DNA of 64,000 nucleotides from Escherichia phage ManiMatter_Bas94: the sequence record PQ850617.1; one strand, given 5' to 3'. The stretch's first letter is position 1, and every line of letters starts with the position of its first letter. A program made the position numbers and the translations under genes. Of this stretch, positions 1 to 53,677 are shown piece after piece. Under the pieces are notes generated by a model, which saw only the letters and a program-made list of their open reading frames with translations, had not been told where the DNA came from and made no database searches.

Positions 1-456
1 GCTTCTAACCCGACCACTAACGTTGGTTTTGATGAAGCTGATATCTTTGATATGACTCTGCAACTGTACACCGCTGGTTCTGAAGCAGACATCATCATGA
101 TTAACCCGGCTCATGCTAAGATCTTCGCTGGTCTGCAAGAAAACACTCAGGGTTCACGTAAGCGTATCTTTGAGAACACCAAGCAGTTCATCTACGAAGT
201 TAACAGCATCACTGACCCGCTGGGCCAGAACTACAAAATCATCGTTAACCGTTGGATGCCTACCGATGCAGTTTACTTCTTCCGTAGCGCTGACTGGACT
301 CAGATGGTCCTGCGTGCTCCGAAACGTACTGAACTGGCAAAAGATGGTTCTTATGAGAAGTGGATGATTGAAATGGAAGTTGGTCTGCGTCACCGCAACC
401 CTTATGCTTCCGGAGTTCTGTTCACTGCTGCGGGAAAGTTGGATCCGCAACAGTAG
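1..456 (+). CDS. Major capsid protein, C-terminal part (5' end outside the window)
   Basis: Frame 1 is open from base 1 (ASNPTTNVGFDEADIFD precedes the listed Met at 52). Codons are strongly biased toward high expression (ctg, cgt, ggt, aac). It is the first gene of the virion module and is followed by an Ig-domain ORF and a strong terminator. The assignment rests on context, not on a diagnostic motif. Confidence 0.6.
   Translation, partial: ASNPTTNVGFDEADIFDMTLQLYTAGSEADIIMINPAHAKIFAGLQENTQGSRKRIFENTKQFIYEVNSITDPLGQNYKIIVNRWMPTDAVYFFRSADWTQMVLRAPKRTELAKDGSYEKWMIEMEVGLRHRNPYASGVLFTAAGKLDPQQ
432..438 (+). promoter_or_regulatory. Candidate -1 programmed frameshift site G_GGA_AAG
   Basis: This is a perfect X_XXY_YYZ heptamer in the capsid reading frame (gcG GGA AAG), 16 nt before the capsid stop codon at 454-456. 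The -1 frame is open from 372 and runs into the Ig-domain ORF. The same heptamer is the lambda G/GT frameshift site. Confidence 0.6.
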
Positions 457-461
457 ACAGT

Positions 462-974
462 GTGACTGTTAGCCCTGCGTCTGTAGAAAGTCTAGAGACA
501 GGGGCTACTCAGCAGTTTACTGCAAGCGCTGAGAAGAGTGACGGCTCTACCGAAACAACTGGCTTTACTTGGTCAGTAACAGGAGGCGGTTCTATCACTC
601 AGTCTGGTTTGTATACTGCTCCGAGTGCGGCTCAATCCACTGATGTATCCATTACTGCGACTTTAGAGGGTGTTTCTGGTACAGCAACCATTTCTGAAAT
701 TGTTGATCCTGCCCCTACTATTGTAGCTAAGGGTCCAATTACAGGTAAAACTGGTGGTTCTTCCACTAACTTCACTACCATGTTTACTGTAACTAATTCT
801 ACTGCTGCGGATTACACGTTTGTTGTAACCCCTACAGAAGCTGGTACAGTAAGCGCCGCTGGTGCGTTAACCTTAGATGATGCTGCAAGTGGCGAAGTTA
901 CTGTTCAAGCAAGTTTGACAGCTGACCCGTCCATCAATGCAACATGCACTTTTACTGGTGTAACACCTGCTTAA
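462..974 (+). CDS. Ig-like (Big_2-type) two-domain ORF, probably a frameshift extension of the capsid protein
   Basis: The motif VTVSPASVESLETGATQQFTASA...GFTWSVTGGGSITQSGLYTAPS is a typical Big_2 signature. The domain consensus begins upstream of the listed GTG (VDSVTVSP). I see no convincing SD, and the ORF lies in the -1 frame relative to the capsid gene. Confidence 0.65.
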   Translation: MTVSPASVESLETGATQQFTASAEKSDGSTETTGFTWSVTGGGSITQSGLYTAPSAAQSTDVSITATLEGVSGTATISEIVDPAPTIVAKGPITGKTGGSSTNFTTMFTVTNSTAADYTFVVTPTEAGTVSAAGALTLDDAASGEVTVQASLTADPSINATCTFTGVTPA

Positions 975-981
975 AATTAGA

Positions 982-1006
982 CCCTGCCTTCGGGCGGGGT
1001 TTTTTC
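982..1006 (+). terminator. Rho-independent terminator
   Basis: Stem ccctgcc/ggcgggg with a ttcg tetraloop, followed by tttttt. Confidence 0.85.
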
Positions 1007-1033
1007 GTTTTAAGACCTATACAAGCCAGCGTG

Positions 1034-1042
1034 TAATGTATA
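1034..1042 (+). promoter_or_regulatory. TAATGTATA motif (candidate phage-sigma late promoter)
   Basis: Exact TAATGTATA lies 34 nt upstream of the ATG at 1076 and directly after a terminator. TAAGACCTA lies 14 nt upstream, the same arrangement as at 17917. Confidence 0.6.
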
Positions 1043-1837: not shown

Positions 1838-4486
1838 ATGATCGTTTATAATAACCAAGCACCTGATGCAGTGAATAACGTTGGGCAGTTTGGTGCTACT
1901 GAAGGCTCTATCGGAGCTTACAAGCAAGCGGCAGAATATGCAGCTGATTCTAAGTATTGGTCACTGTTGGCAGAGGCTAAGTTTGGTACAGTTGATGACT
2001 TGATTGCTCAGGTTGAGATTCTATACAAACAAGGTGTTCTATTAAGAGAAGATATTGAAGACTTAAAACAAGACTTCATTGCACAAGATGCTCGTTTGAT
2101 GAACCTCATTGCTCAAACTAACGCAGCTGTAGCTGATGCAAATAATGCAGTTGCTCTGATTAATCAGAAACTTGTAGAAGTTCAGAATCAACTCGACGTT
2201 CTGTTGGGAATGTCTGTTGACGTAACTACACTTCCTCCGGGAACTCCGGCTACTGGCTCTTTTAATCCGAACACTGGTGTAATCTCTCTGGGTATCCCAG
2301 AAGGTGATCCCGGAAAGGATGGTTCTGTTACTGACCTATCTGCTGCTCCTACCGGTACACCGGAGCTGGGGGACATCGGTTTCTATGTTGACAAAGATGA
2401 TAACATTGTTCACAAAACAACTCTCGAAGATATTGCAAACCTGATCCCATCTGTTCGTTCTGTTTCAGTTAACGATGGCCCTGCGCTTGACGGAGAAGTT
2501 GCTCTAACGCTTAACAAAGAGACGGTAGGTTTAGGGAATGTTCTGAACGTGGCTCAGTACAGCCGCCAAGAGATTAATGATAAGTTTGACAAAACAACTA
2601 AAACCTACCAATCGAAAGCCGAAGCTGATGCGGATGCTCAATACCGACAGGTAGGAGAAAAGGTTTTGGTGTGGGACTCAACGAAGTATGAATTCTATAC
2701 TGTTGCAGCGAATAAAACCCTTACTCCGGTTAAAACAGAAGGTCGTATCCTAACTGTTAACTCCCGTTCTCCTGATTCAACTGGTAACATCGATATCGTA
2801 ATCCCAACAGGAAACCCATCTTTGTATTTAGGGGAGATGGTAATGTTCCCTTATGACCCAGCTAAAGCTGTCTCCTATCCGGGCATTCTTCCTGCGGACG
2901 GTCGTTTGGTGTCAAAAGAATCTGCTTTGGATTTAGGCCCATCCCTTATCAGTGGACAACTCCCTGTTGTTTCTGAAACAGAGTGGCAAGCTGGTGCTAA
3001 GCAATATTTCTCTTGGGGTAAATTAGCCGATGGCATCACTGATGCAGATTCTACTAACTATATCAATATCCGTCTTCCTGATTGGACAGGCGGTGAGGCT
3101 ATTCGATCCCCTGATTCTGTAAAAGATAGTGCATATAAAGGTAATGTTCAAAGTCAGGTCCCTTATGTAGTCACTGTAAATAACCAAGCTCCTGATGAGA
3201 TTACAGGTAACGTCAATATCTCCAGATCTATCTTAGGTGCTGCTGCTGCTGGTGCAAACTCTGATATAACATCTCTCGCAGGGCTTACAACAGCGCTTTC
3301 TGTCACTCAGGGTGGAACAGGTGCAAAGAATTCCAATGATGCTAAGGTAAATTTAGATTTAGACAGAATAGAGCAAGGTTCTGGAGAGACTAAGATCCTA
3401 TCTCCAAATAAAGAAACCTACATGTTTGTTGATAATGACGGGTGGGGTTGTTACCGTACCACGGCTGGGTTGGTCGGTACTGTAGCTTTGTCAGTTGAGA
3501 GAGGGGGCACTGGAGCAACAGATGTTGCTAGTGCAAGAGATAATCTAGGACTTAAATCTCTTTCTACATTAGATACTGTTCCAGTAACAAAAGGTGGGAC
3601 AGGTGCTATCACTGCTGCGGAGGCTAGGTCTAATTTAGGTCTTGGTTCTGTTGCTACTCTTAGTAACGTACCAATCGCTAGTGGTGGTACAGGTGCTAGT
3701 GATGCTGCCGGTGCAAGGTTTAATTTGGGGTTGGGAAATGTTTCTACTCTGGACAACGTACCAGTTGCTAGTGGTGGTACAGGTGCTAGTGATGCTGCCG
3801 GTGCCCGAAGCAACCTCGGAGCGCTGAGTAACACTCCAGCAAACACAGGTGCAGGTAATACTGGTGCGCGAGTCCAACATGCCACCGGAAGAGGTCTGTT
3901 TACTTTAGACATGTTTAACTGCTACTGGTATATGCAGCCAGAGGATACTAACTTCTGGGTTGCCCACGGTGTGTCATATGCAGGGCCTAATGGCGAAGCC
4001 TCAGAGTATGGTCGTATATCTTACGCAATAAAGATTGCAGATGGAACAACAAAATATGTCCATTGTCTTACAAACAAAAACACCATCATTGATACAGGCG
4101 GATTTATCAAAGCGGCATCTCCGGTAGTTAACATTTATGCCAACGGTCGGTATGAAACGAACGATGAGTCTGAGGGGGTTAGTGTCATCCGGCAGGGTAT
4201 TGGTGAATATCTGATTACCGGTTGCCTCGGTCTTAACTCTGATGCAAGATGGGGTGGGGTGGATGGGGGGTTTGAAATCCCAACAGATCGCAACAAGCAA
4301 CCTAGGATTTGGCTGGACTATGAGGTTAAAGAAGATGGTTCTATTTTAGTTAAAACCTATCACAGAACTCACCCAACCTCTCCAGTTTTTGCTAGAAACG
4401 AGATAGAAGGTTTTTCTGATGGGGACCCTATTGATATTCCAAGTGATGCTTTTATCTCAGTTCGTGTAGAGATGCCAGCTGAGTAA
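1838..4486 (+). CDS. Tail fibre protein (coiled-coil N-terminus, GGTGA..A..AR.NLGL repeats, globular C-terminus)
   Basis: Five tandem units of the phage tail-fibre repeat type (V.ASGGTGASDAAGAR.NLGL). The N-terminus is a heptad-rich segment. Confidence 0.75.
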   Translation: MIVYNNQAPDAVNNVGQFGATEGSIGAYKQAAEYAADSKYWSLLAEAKFGTVDDLIAQVEILYKQGVLLREDIEDLKQDFIAQDARLMNLIAQTNAAVADANNAVALINQKLVEVQNQLDVLLGMSVDVTTLPPGTPATGSFNPNTGVISLGIPEGDPGKDGSVTDLSAAPTGTPELGDIGFYVDKDDNIVHKTTLEDIANLIPSVRSVSVNDGPALDGEVALTLNKETVGLGNVLNVAQYSRQEINDKFDKTTKTYQSKAEADADAQYRQVGEKVLVWDSTKYEFYTVAANKTLTPVKTEGRILTVNSRSPDSTGNIDIVIPTGNPSLYLGEMVMFPYDPAKAVSYPGILPADGRLVSKESALDLGPSLISGQLPVVSETEWQAGAKQYFSWGKLADGITDADSTNYINIRLPDWTGGEAIRSPDSVKDSAYKGNVQSQVPYVVTVNNQAPDEITGNVNISRSILGAAAAGANSDITSLAGLTTALSVTQGGTGAKNSNDAKVNLDLDRIEQGSGETKILSPNKETYMFVDNDGWGCYRTTAGLVGTVALSVERGGTGATDVASARDNLGLKSLSTLDTVPVTKGGTGAITAAEARSNLGLGSVATLSNVPIASGGTGASDAAGARFNLGLGNVSTLDNVPVASGGTGASDAAGARSNLGALSNTPANTGAGNTGARVQHATGRGLFTLDMFNCYWYMQPEDTNFWVAHGVSYAGPNGEASEYGRISYAIKIADGTTKYVHCLTNKNTIIDTGGFIKAASPVVNIYANGRYETNDESEGVSVIRQGIGEYLITGCLGLNSDARWGGVDGGFEIPTDRNKQPRIWLDYEVKEDGSILVKTYHRTHPTSPVFARNEIEGFSDGDPIDIPSDAFISVRVEMPAE
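3295..3830 (+). repeat. Tandem roughly 90-bp (30-aa) tail-fibre repeats, the last two nearly identical at DNA level
   Basis: ccaatcgctagtggtggtacaggtgctagtgatgctgccggtgca (3671-3715) compares with ccagttgctagtggtggtacaggtgctagtgatgctgccggtgcc (3761-3805). Confidence 0.85.
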
Positions 4487-17916: not shown

Positions 17917-17925
17917 TAATGTATA
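17917..17925 (+). promoter_or_regulatory. TAATGTATA motif (candidate phage-sigma late promoter)
   Basis: Exact motif 38 nt upstream of ATG 17963. TAAGACCTA lies 14 nt upstream, as at 1034. Confidence 0.55.
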
Positions 17926-26380: not shown

Positions 26381-26389
26381 TATACATTA
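26381..26389 (-). promoter_or_regulatory. TAATGTATA motif (minus strand) upstream of the SSB gene
   Basis: Plus-strand tatacatta is an exact minus-strand motif about 60 nt upstream of ATG 26321. It forms a near-palindrome with ttatgtata (26371-26379). Confidence 0.55.
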
Positions 26390-26452: not shown

Positions 26453-26461
26453 TAATGTATA
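26453..26461 (+). promoter_or_regulatory. Orphan plus-strand TAATGTATA motif with GGTAGTAGATAT upstream element
   Basis: Exact motif pointing rightward into ORF-free sequence inside the leftward gene train. GGTAGTAGATAT lies 10 nt upstream, the same arrangement as at 36386 on the minus strand. Confidence 0.45.
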
Positions 26462-31891: not shown

Positions 31892-31900
31892 TATACATTA
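31892..31900 (-). promoter_or_regulatory. TAATGTATA motif (minus strand)
   Basis: Plus-strand tatacatta lies 37 nt upstream of ATG 31855. Confidence 0.55.
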
Positions 31901-53597: not shown

Positions 53598-53677
53598 TGA
53601 GGATGACAGGATTTGAACCTGCATACTCCAATTACTTCTTTAACGACCGCTTAGAAGGCGGGGAAGATACATCCTCA
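53598..53677 (-). tRNA. tRNA-like element (possible degenerate tRNA-Arg UCU); non-canonical by eye
   Basis: The minus strand has a 7-8 bp acceptor stem GAGGATG/CATCCTC, a perfect T arm GCAGG-TTCAAAT-CCTGT, and a hairpin CCGC-CTTCTAA-GCGG with an anticodon-like loop (UCU). I could not fold a D arm: only 7 nt lie between the acceptor stem and that hairpin, and 23 nt follow it. Confidence 0.4.

What the first reader, a model, noticed from the sequence alone, without database searches (positions are those of the whole stretch)
372..974. Probable -1 programmed frameshift at GGGAAAG fusing an Ig-like (Big_2) decoration domain to the major capsid protein
The capsid ORF ends ...gcG GGA AAG ttg gat ccg caa cag TAG. 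The heptamer G_GGA_AAG (432-438) is a perfect slippery site and is identical to the lambda G/GT site.

The -1 frame is open from 372 and continues into the 170-aa Ig-like ORF. A slip would give ...FTAAG-K-VGSATVDSVTVSPASVESLETGATQQFTA.

The Big_2 consensus (V.SVTVSP..) starts upstream of the annotated GTG 462, and that GTG has no good SD. Both facts argue against independent initiation.

Phage Ig-like domains are known to be appended to structural proteins by frameshifting. A possible stimulatory stem ACAGT-gtg-ACTGT (457-469) lies farther downstream than is usual.
Basis: partly seen in the sequence, partly recalled or inferred. Interest (0 to 1): 0.75.

Follow-up and report, generated by a model that had tools for sequence, protein, structure and literature searches.

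The report
Known capsid frameshift adding Ig domains
The end of this phage's major capsid gene carries a slippery GGGAAAG site where a few ribosomes probably slip back one base and add two Ig-like domains to the capsid protein; the feature looks real, but it has already been described for this phage group (phiEco32, SU10, YF01, Privateer).

Summary
The window comes from a Kuravirus-like (phiEco32/SU10/LAMP) E. coli podophage, 99% identical to Bas93, Bas92 and LAMP.

**What is in the sequence**
- G_GGA_AAG lies at 432-438, in the correct X_XXY_YYZ register, 15 nt before the capsid stop (TAG 454-456).
- The -1 frame is open from 372 to 971.
- A slip gives ...FTAAGK-VGSATVDSVTVSP... plus 178 residues.
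- These residues model with high confidence as two tandem Big_2-like Ig domains.

**Comparative evidence for the frameshift**
- Every Kuravirus relative examined except SU10, whose frame is broken, keeps the heptamer and an open -1 frame.
- The annotated GTG462 start has no Shine-Dalgarno sequence. It is GTA or ATA in several relatives.
- The -1-frame peptide upstream of 462 is conserved through synonymous changes, while the 0-frame tail varies.
- The first beta-strand of the Ig domain begins before 462.
- Some distant relatives (7-11, BUCT695, A24) encode in-frame capsid-Big_2 fusions instead.

Neighbouring hairpins are, and one of them shows compensatory changes.

**Novelty**
The frameshift is published: SU10 in 2014 "as in phiEco32", Privateer in 2021, and YF01 with the whole group in 2023. 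GenBank records of this lineage still list two separate genes.

The parts
1..456 (+). 3' part of the major capsid protein gene. The gene runs off the window start. The 0-frame product ends ...FTAAGKLDPQQ with stop TAG at 454-456.
   Evidence: Pfam SU10_MCP, E 2.1e-33. 98% identical over residues 204-350 to the solved SU10 major head protein 7Z45. Annotated as major head protein in Bas93 and LAMP.
432..438 (+). Slippery heptamer G_GGA_AAG in X_XXY_YYZ register. tRNA-Gly and tRNA-Lys would re-pair on GGG AAA.
   Evidence: Read directly. Invariant in all Kuravirus-like relatives. The same heptamer is published as the slippage site in SU10, YF01 and Privateer (PMC4281155, PMC9965538, PMC7881722).
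438..974 (+). The -1-frame extension read after the slip: 178 codons (438-971) plus stop TAA at 972-974. The expected fusion is about 526 aa, made of capsid residues 1-348 plus 178.
   Evidence: The capsid protein length of 353 aa comes from the Bas93 annotation. 93% identical to 'Ig domain containing protein' of phage MN05. Matches phrog_13745.
438..452 (+). Short Gly/Ser-type linker (VGSAT) in the -1 frame. In the 0 frame it overlaps the last capsid codons.
   Evidence: Relatives have GGGV, GGSV or GSGGV at this place.
453..692 (+). Ig-like domain 1 (Big_2-like), extension residues 6-85. Its first beta-strand, VDSVTVS, starts 9 nt upstream of GTG462.
   Evidence: AlphaFold model with pLDDT 96.4. 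Pfam Big_2 is sub-threshold here but above threshold in orthologues. The best solved match is the LigA tandem Big_2 structure 8GYR, E 1e-10.
717..971 (+). Ig-like domain 2, about extension residues 94-178.
   Evidence: AlphaFold secondary structure. The Foldseek alignment to two-domain LigA covers both domains. phrog_33551 matches residues 115-178.
462..464 (+). GTG used as the start codon of a separate 'Ig domain protein' gene in public annotations. It is probably just an internal Val codon.
   Evidence: No SD, -0.5 kcal/mol. The codon is GTA or ATA in KBNP1711, Bas87, NJ01, L025, L026 and L039. Annotated as the CDS start in Bas93, LAMP and phiEco32.
449..470 (+). Hairpin core AACAGU (449-454) with ACUGUU (465-470), 10 nt after the heptamer. 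It is a candidate stimulatory element. In phiEco32-type phages it is extended by a G+C-rich outer stem that starts right after the heptamer. That outer stem is largely lost in this lineage.
Evidence: Fold energies are -10.2 kcal/mol here and -23.8 to -27.3 in phiEco32, KBNP1711 and Bas87. There is no covariation, so the role is inferred.
472..505 (+). Second conserved hairpin. The inner stem pairs 479-486 with 492-499. The outer stem pairs 472-476 with 501-505.
   Evidence: Two pairs have compensatory changes: UA/GC/AU at 482-496 and GC/UG at 483-495. 93% of cells are paired. The 425-520 fold has z = -3.07. Its function is unknown, and it starts 33 nt or more past the heptamer.
979..1012 (+). 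Rho-independent terminator (10-bp stem, then a T-run). It follows the Ig extension, not the capsid stop codon.
   Evidence: A terminator is annotated at the same place in SU10 and Privateer.

Best explanation
**What it is.** This is the capsid-gene -1 programmed ribosomal frameshift of Kuravirus-like (phiEco32-like) podophages.

**How it works.**
- Most ribosomes read GCG GGA AAG and continue to TAG at 454, making the 353-aa major capsid protein.
- A minority slip back one base on G_GGA_AAG (432-438).
- Those ribosomes continue in the -1 frame for 178 more codons, through a short linker and two tandem Big_2-like Ig domains.
- They stop at 972-974, just before the terminator.
- The result is a minor capsid subunit of about 526 aa that co-assembles into the prolate head and displays the Ig domains outward.

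**Shown here.** The signal, the frames, their conservation, the lack of an independent start, and the fold of the extension.

**Taken from the literature on relatives.** That the fusion protein is made and is present in virions.

**Inferred.**
- The slip frequency. I expect a few percent, by analogy with lambda G/GT, which uses the same heptamer, and with T7 10A/10B.
- The surface location of the Ig domains.
- Any role of the downstream hairpins.
For: 1. The heptamer is in register and the -1 frame is open from 372 to 971.
2. All Kuravirus-like genomes and metagenome contigs fetched keep GGGAAAG 9-15 nt before the capsid stop, with the -1 frame open for 175-545 further codons. These are phiEco32, NJ01, KBNP1711, ECBP2, Bas87, Bas93 and L025-L033, L039. 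SU10 alone has a broken frame.
3. More distant capsid relatives (50-77% identity) also have an Ig-type ORF in the -1 frame that begins at a lysine-codon slip motif 0-3 nt before the stop. The motifs are GGGAAAG in Privateer and CsaP_009, GGTAAAG in LAh_9, TacPo2 and L006-8, and CCCAAAA in PJNS034. Their Ig domains start at extension residues 1-8.
4. GTG462 has no SD and is not a start codon in several relatives. No alternative start there has an SD.
5. The -1-frame peptide TVD(S/T)(V/I)TVSP upstream of 462 is conserved through synonymous changes, while the 0-frame tail varies: KLDPQQ, KVAA, KAVAA, KAGA, KVEA.
6. The modelled first beta-strand starts before 462.
7. 7-11, BUCT695 and A24 carry a second capsid paralogue that is an in-frame SU10_MCP + Big_2 fusion. 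The covalent fusion is therefore a functional architecture in this capsid family.
8. The terminator follows the extension, not the capsid stop.
9. Published evidence:
   - SU10 paper: GGGAAAG slippage fusing gp9 and gp10 'as in phiEco32', with 38.5 and 55.4 kDa forms listed by mass spectrometry (PMC4281155).
   - Privateer: two capsid bands, and the minor form detected by mass spectrometry (PMC7881722).
   - YF01 and the whole group, including LAMP (PMC9965538).
Against: - There are no protein data for this phage or its closest relatives (LAMP, Bas92, Bas93).
- In this lineage the sequence just 3' of the heptamer has diverged (TTGGATCCGC in place of GGYGGCGGCG). The immediate hairpin is no more stable than shuffled sequence (-10.2 kcal/mol, z = -0.87). 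Efficiency may therefore be low.
- SU10 cryo-EM showed no extra capsid density (PMC9509320), and by the YF01 paper's account (PMC9965538) its SDS-PAGE showed no larger band. The SU10 genome does have a stop in the -1 frame shortly after the site, and this also makes the earlier SU10 mass-spectrometry claim ambiguous.
- The primary phiEco32 paper (Savalia 2008) could not be read here.
- Pfam Big_2 is below its cut-off for this sequence alone.
Confidence: 0.88

Rival explanations
1. Independent gene. The Ig ORF is translated on its own from GTG462, as annotated in GenBank for LAMP, Bas92, Bas93 and phiEco32. It would give a free 170-aa decoration protein that binds the capsid non-covalently.
For: - ORF-listing and public annotations start it at GTG462.
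- The SU10 structural paper treated gp10 as a possible separate minor capsid protein that is lost on purification (PMC9509320).
Against: - There is no SD (-0.5 kcal/mol).
- GTG is replaced by GTA or ATA in relatives that keep the ORF intact. Their first in-frame starts are codons 16-47, inside the domain, also without an SD.
- Protein-level conservation and the first beta-strand extend upstream of 462.
- Gene callers pick inconsistent starts, giving lengths from 110 to 254 aa.
Confidence: 0.05
2. Termination-reinitiation. Ribosomes finish the capsid protein at TAG 454-456 and restart without an SD at GTG462, 5 nt downstream. This would give a free Ig protein in a fixed ratio to the capsid protein.
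For: The stop and the GTG are only 5 nt apart in this window. Coupled restarts can do without an SD (general knowledge).
Against: - The start codon is not conserved.
- The heptamer and the open -1 frame upstream of the stop are conserved, which reinitiation does not require.
- In Privateer-type and LAh_9-type phages the Ig domain begins at extension residues 1-4, with no start codon available.
Confidence: 0.03
3. Decaying or silent extension. The heptamer is a relic and the extension is not produced in useful amounts in this lineage, as appears to be the case in SU10.
For: - SU10 has a stop in the -1 frame 11 codons after the site, and cryo-EM shows no extra density.
- The immediate 3' hairpin is weakened in this lineage.
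Against: - The 178-codon frame is intact.
- It is 86-93% identical to its orthologues.
- It folds with pLDDT 96.4.
- The junction shows synonymous-only change.
- All of this indicates continuing selection on the translated product.
Confidence: 0.03
4. Transcriptional slippage. RNA polymerase, not the ribosome, changes the frame at the A-run.
For: None specific. The outcome (one base fewer) would be the same.
Against: The run is only three A's. Known productive transcriptional slippage needs much longer homopolymer runs (general knowledge). The conserved feature is the full X_XXY_YYZ heptamer in codon register.
Confidence: 0.01

Closest known systems
Major-capsid -1 frameshift of Kuravirus-like / phiEco32-like phages (phiEco32 gp11-gp12, SU10 gp9+gp10, YF01 gp8, Privateer)
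   Same: - The capsid family is the same (SU10_MCP; 98% identical to the solved SU10 protein).
- The heptamer GGGAAAG is the same and sits a few codons before the capsid stop.
- The direction is the same (-1).
- The extension is orthologous and Ig-like (PMC4281155, PMC9965538, PMC7881722).
   Different: - In the 68-kb LAMP/Bas92/Bas93 lineage, the 10 nt after the heptamer differ (TTGGATCCGC).
- This gives a longer 0-frame tail (KLDPQQ), a VGSA linker instead of GGGV, and a weaker immediate hairpin.
- Public records of this lineage annotate two separate genes.
T7 / T3 gene 10A-10B capsid frameshift
   Same: A -1 frameshift near the end of the major capsid gene of a podophage gives a minor, C-terminally extended capsid subunit, at about 10% (as cited in PMC9965538; own knowledge).
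   Different: The slippery sequence and the extension are different. The T7 site was not examined here.
Lambda G/GT tail-assembly-chaperone frameshift
   Same: The heptamer G_GGA_AAG is identical and the slip is -1 near the end of the upstream ORF (own knowledge). The rate is about 3.5%, as cited in PMC9965538.
   Different: It affects a tail chaperone, not a capsid protein. The product is not a virion decoration.
Ig-like domains appended to phage structural proteins by frameshifting (Fraser et al. 2006, cited in PMC9965538)
   Same: Big_2 or I-set domains are added to the C-terminus of a structural protein through a programmed frameshift and displayed on the virion.
   Different: None in principle. 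This case is one instance of that class.
In-frame capsid-Big_2 paralogues of Salmonella phage 7-11, Aeromonas phage BUCT695 and Cronobacter phage A24
   Same: The capsid family is the same and the end product is the same: a minority capsid subunit carrying Big_2.
   Different: It is achieved by gene duplication with an in-frame fusion. The first copy is followed directly by a terminator-like hairpin, and there is no recoding.

Membership tests
Canonical -1 programmed ribosomal frameshift site | X_XXY_YYZ heptamer in the 0-frame codon register | tested here: met
   G_GGA_AAG at 432-438, with codons GCG GGA AAG.
Canonical -1 programmed ribosomal frameshift site | The -1 frame is open across the site and continues into a substantial coding region | tested here: met
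   Open from 372 to 971, which is 178 codons after the slip. It is the only ORF of 106 in the window with this combination.
Canonical -1 programmed ribosomal frameshift site | Site and frame relation conserved among relatives despite flanking divergence | tested here: met
   The heptamer is invariant in all Kuravirus-like loci fetched, while the following 10-13 nt vary.
Canonical -1 programmed ribosomal frameshift site | Stimulatory element: a downstream hairpin or pseudoknot about 5-9 nt away, or an upstream SD-like sequence | tested here: inconclusive
   - An invariant hairpin lies 10 nt downstream, but it shows no covariation and in this window is not more stable than shuffles.
- A second hairpin with compensatory pairs starts 33 nt or more downstream.
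- The upstream GGAG (411-414) is 17 nt away and is not conserved: relatives have GGCG or GGTG.
Canonical -1 programmed ribosomal frameshift site | A trans-frame protein is actually produced | not testable with these tools
   Reported for relatives only: SU10 and phiEco32 (PMC4281155) and Privateer (PMC7881722). The SU10 data are contradictory (PMC9965538, PMC9509320).
Kuravirus-like extended capsid isoform | The upstream gene is an SU10-type major capsid protein | tested here: met
   Pfam SU10_MCP, E 2.1e-33. 98% identity to 7Z45.
Kuravirus-like extended capsid isoform | The extension is orthologous to phiEco32 gp12 / SU10 gp10 | tested here: met
   86-93% identity to Kuravirus 'Ig domain containing protein' clusters. 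phrog_13745, E 1.4e-81. DNA is 96% identical to phiEco32 across 1-1100.
Big_2 (PF02368) bacterial Ig-like domain | Score above the Pfam gathering threshold | tested here: not met
   19.0 bits against 22.8 for this sequence. Orthologues and relatives do pass: P0004 and P0007, and Bas87, L006 and Privateer.
Big_2 (PF02368) bacterial Ig-like domain | Ig-like beta-sandwich fold resembling solved Big_2 domains | tested here: met
   AlphaFold pLDDT 96.4 with two beta-sandwiches. The top PDB hit is the LigA tandem Big_2 structure 8GYR (E 1e-10, 24% identity). Big_2-CBM56 (7R3T) is also hit.

The most novel reading that the evidence does not exclude
The frameshift itself is not new. The most novel reading still open has two parts.

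1. The conserved RNA structures 3' of the heptamer may set the ratio of decorated to plain capsid subunits. These are the invariant 449-470 hairpin and the 472-505 hairpin with compensatory pairs. The LAMP/Bas92/Bas93 lineage has lost the G+C-rich outer stem found in phiEco32, so it may run at a different ratio.

2. Across the wider capsid family, three interchangeable solutions produce a minority Ig-bearing subunit: the canonical GGGAAAG slip, a non-canonical G_GTA_AAG slip, and duplicated in-frame paralogues. That would make the family a natural experiment on how that ratio is tuned in prolate heads.
Probability: 0.3. Interest if true: 0.35.

Novelty: already known. Interest (0 to 1): 0.15.

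Why it matters
- **Annotation.** The GenBank records closest to this window (LAMP, Bas92, Bas93, and also phiEco32 itself) list a separate 'Ig domain protein' gene starting at a GTG that is almost certainly an internal valine codon. The extended capsid isoform is missing from those records.
- **Biology.** Ig-like domains displayed on capsids are thought to mediate weak adhesion to carbohydrate surfaces (general knowledge). The C-terminus of this capsid protein is therefore a natural display site, which could matter for phage engineering with the BASEL strains.
- **Novelty.** Nothing here changes what is known about recoding.

Tried and rejected
It is paired in only 80% of cells, is broken in 3 to 5 of 10 relatives and shows no covariation. 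I rejected it as the conserved element.
- **Upstream SD-like stimulator, dnaX style.** GGAG at 411-414 is 17 nt from the site and is not conserved. Rejected.
- **Heptamer frequency.** It is at chance level in the window, so frequency alone is no argument.
- **Hairpin enclosing the heptamer, as proposed for SU10 (PMC4281155).** A different pairing forms here (429-433 with 445-449), so the register is not conserved. I did not pursue it.
- **Primary phiEco32 paper (Savalia 2008).** Two look-ups failed. It is cited only through later papers.
- **First structure job.** I re-ran it with permitted rows.
- **Other searches.** The IMG/VR and metagenome scans gave only 11 and 16 loci. That was enough for frame conservation but too few lineages for strong covariation statistics. 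Rfam has no family covering this site.

Full report
**Identity of the window.** Bases 1-1100 are 99.1-99.4% identical to Escherichia phages AidaStucki_Bas93, JacquesWildberger_Bas92 and LAMP, and about 96% identical to phiEco32, SU10 and many other Kuravirus phages. The window opens inside the major capsid protein gene. Pfam gives SU10_MCP at E 2.1e-33, and the protein is 98% identical to the solved SU10 head protein 7Z45. The next gene (1076-1828) is the SU10-type adaptor.

**The observation.** The capsid frame ends GCG GGA AAG TTG GAT CCG CAA CAG TAG, so G_GGA_AAG (432-438) is in X_XXY_YYZ register, 15 nt before the stop at 454-456.
- The -1 frame is closed at 369-371 and then open from 372 to 971.
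- After a slip it reads V-G-S-A-T-V-D-S-V-T-V-S-P..., 178 codons in all, ending at TAA 972-974.
- The heptamer by itself occurs at chance frequency in the window: 5 copies against 7.2 expected.
- Of 106 ORFs of 80 aa or more, this is the only one with an in-register canonical heptamer in its last 30 codons and an open -1 frame behind it.

**No independent start.** GTG462 has an anti-SD duplex energy of -0.5 kcal/mol. The median for ORFs of 150 aa or more in this window is -7.3, neighbouring late genes score -7 to -12, and random positions have a median of -1.5.
- In KBNP1711, Bas87 and metagenome contigs L025, L026 and L039 the homologous codon is GTA. In NJ01 it is ATA.
- In those genomes the first in-frame ATG, GTG or TTG is codon 16, 34 or 47 of the extension, inside the first Ig domain, and none has an SD.
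- Gene callers accordingly give this ORF many different lengths, from 110 to 254 aa.

**Selection acts on the -1 frame upstream of 462.** Between the heptamer and codon 462 the -1-frame peptide is a Gly/Ser linker followed by TVD(S/T)(V/I)TVSP.
- It is kept through synonymous changes: GAC/GAT, AGT/AGC/TCC for Ser, GTG/GTA, AGC/AGT and CCT/CCC.
- The 0-frame tail of the capsid protein varies in length and sequence: KLDPQQ, KVAA, KAVAA, KAGA, KVEA.

**Conservation of the signal.**
- Every Kuravirus-like genome or contig fetched keeps GGGAAAG 9-15 nt before the capsid stop. All of them except SU10 have the -1 frame open for 175-545 further codons. They are phiEco32, NJ01, KBNP1711, ECBP2, Bas87, Bas93 and L025-L033, L039.
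- SU10 keeps the heptamer, but a one-base difference closes the -1 frame 11 codons after the slip. The YF01 paper noted this too (PMC9965538).
- Capsid relatives at 50-77% identity show the same layout with other Ig types. Privateer and CsaP_009 have GGGAAAG abutting TAA, followed by I-set + Big_2. LAh_9, TacPo2 and three environmental contigs have G_GTA_AAG. PJNS034 has C_CCA_AAA. In each, the Ig domain begins at extension residues 1-8.
- Salmonella phage 7-11, Aeromonas phage BUCT695 and Cronobacter phage A24 have no frameshift. Instead they carry a second capsid paralogue that is an in-frame SU10_MCP + Big_2 fusion. This shows independently that a covalent capsid-Ig subunit is what selection maintains.

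**The extension.** An AlphaFold model built from 27 homologues has mean pLDDT 96.4 and shows two beta-sandwich domains, at residues 6-85 and 94-176.
- The first strand is residues 6-12, which is nt 453-473, so it starts before GTG462.
- The best solved match is the tandem Big_2 segment of Leptospira LigA (8GYR, E 1e-10, 24% identity).
- Pfam Big_2 is below its cut-off for this sequence (19.0 against 22.8 bits). Orthologues pass it.
- A rho-independent terminator (979-1002 plus a T-run) follows the extension rather than the capsid stop.

**RNA structure.**
- In phiEco32, KBNP1711 and Bas87 this hairpin is extended by a G+C-rich outer stem that starts right after the heptamer. Fold energies there are -23.8 to -27.3 kcal/mol, with z from -2.8 to -3.6.
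- In this window that arm is replaced by TTGGATCCGC. The fold is -10.2 kcal/mol with z = -0.87.
- A second hairpin (479-486 with 492-499, closed by 472-476 with 501-505) has two pairs with compensatory changes. The 482-496 pair is U-A, G-C or A-U, linking a synonymous Ser third position to the second position of a variable codon.
- With ten sequences from about four lineages this is suggestive only, and the hairpin lies farther from the site than known stimulators. No conserved upstream SD-like element exists.

**Literature.**
- The SU10 genome paper states that GGGAAAG in CDS9 would fuse the major head protein to the Ig-like domain of CDS10 'as in phage phiEco32'. It lists 38.5 and 55.4 kDa forms from mass spectrometry (PMC4281155).
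- The Privateer paper reports the same heptamer, two capsid bands and the minor form by mass spectrometry. It says the frameshifted product was seen in phiEco32 and SU10 (PMC7881722).
- The YF01 paper describes the slip for YF01 'and other group phages'. Its group table includes LAMP. It states that loss of the extended form is unique to SU10 (PMC9965538).
- SU10 cryo-EM saw no extra density (PMC9509320), which fits its broken frame.
- The BASEL paper that introduced Bas92 and Bas93 does not mention the frameshift.
- GenBank records for LAMP, Bas93 and phiEco32 annotate two separate genes.

**Verdict.** The mechanism is an ordinary -1 programmed frameshift, already published for this phage group, so novelty is 'already known' and interest is low. 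Three things remain open:
- the slip frequency;
- any role of the conserved hairpins;
- direct protein evidence in the LAMP/Bas92/Bas93 lineage.

Noticed in passing
L014 (SU10, KM044272) 3432-3475: SU10 keeps GGGAAAG, but it reads GACACTGTCTACTGTTAG where phiEco32 has GACAGTGTGACTGTTAG. That is one extra base, and it closes the -1 frame 11 codons after the slip. This conflicts with the 55.4-kDa 'gp9+10' form in the 2014 SU10 proteomics table and fits the 2022 cryo-EM result. It is either a real loss or a sequencing error.
   Followed up: partly
L017 2473-4230 (Salmonella phage 7-11); L021 2482-3714 (BUCT695); L019 3522-4607 (A24): These phages have two tandem capsid paralogues. The first is plain and is followed by a terminator-like hairpin. 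The second is an in-frame SU10_MCP + Big_2 fusion. This is a duplication-based alternative to the frameshift.
   Followed up: partly
L006-L008 2905-2911; L020 3405-3411 (LAh_9); L023 3420-3426 (TacPo2); L022 3417-3423 (PJNS034): More distant relatives have an Ig ORF in the -1 frame but a non-canonical G_GTA_AAG motif (C_CCA_AAA in PJNS034) 0-3 nt before the capsid stop. None of them is annotated as a frameshift. L006-8 also have a G+C-rich hairpin (GCGCCC-CUAC-GGGCGU) 6 nt after the motif.
   Followed up: partly
window 472-505: A hairpin inside the Ig coding region has compensatory base-pair changes among Kuravirus relatives (U-A, G-C or A-U at 482-496). Its function is unknown.
   Followed up: partly
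L015 3938-5302 (Bas87); L025 2938-4570; L026; L039: The length of the frameshift extension varies about threefold within Kuravirus-like phages, from 178 to 437-545 aa. This suggests modular gain and loss of Ig repeats on the capsid.
   Followed up: no
window 1034-1042, 17917-17925, 26381-26389 (-), 26453-26461, 31892-31900 (-): There are five exact copies of TAATGTATA. The first lies between the terminator and the adaptor gene. From memory it resembles the phiEco32 phage-sigma-dependent promoter element. I did not test this. With one mismatch allowed, the count is at chance level.
   Followed up: no
window 53598-53676 (-): Rfam reports a tRNA hit (33.4 bits, gathering score 29) that ARAGORN does not report. 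The YF01 paper's table lists one tRNA for LAMP.
   Followed up: no
search hit H64, MZ417522.1: A 24.9-kb record named 'Mycolicibacterium phage J1' encodes a capsid protein 98% identical to the E. coli Kuravirus one. It is probably a contaminated or mislabelled record.
   Followed up: no
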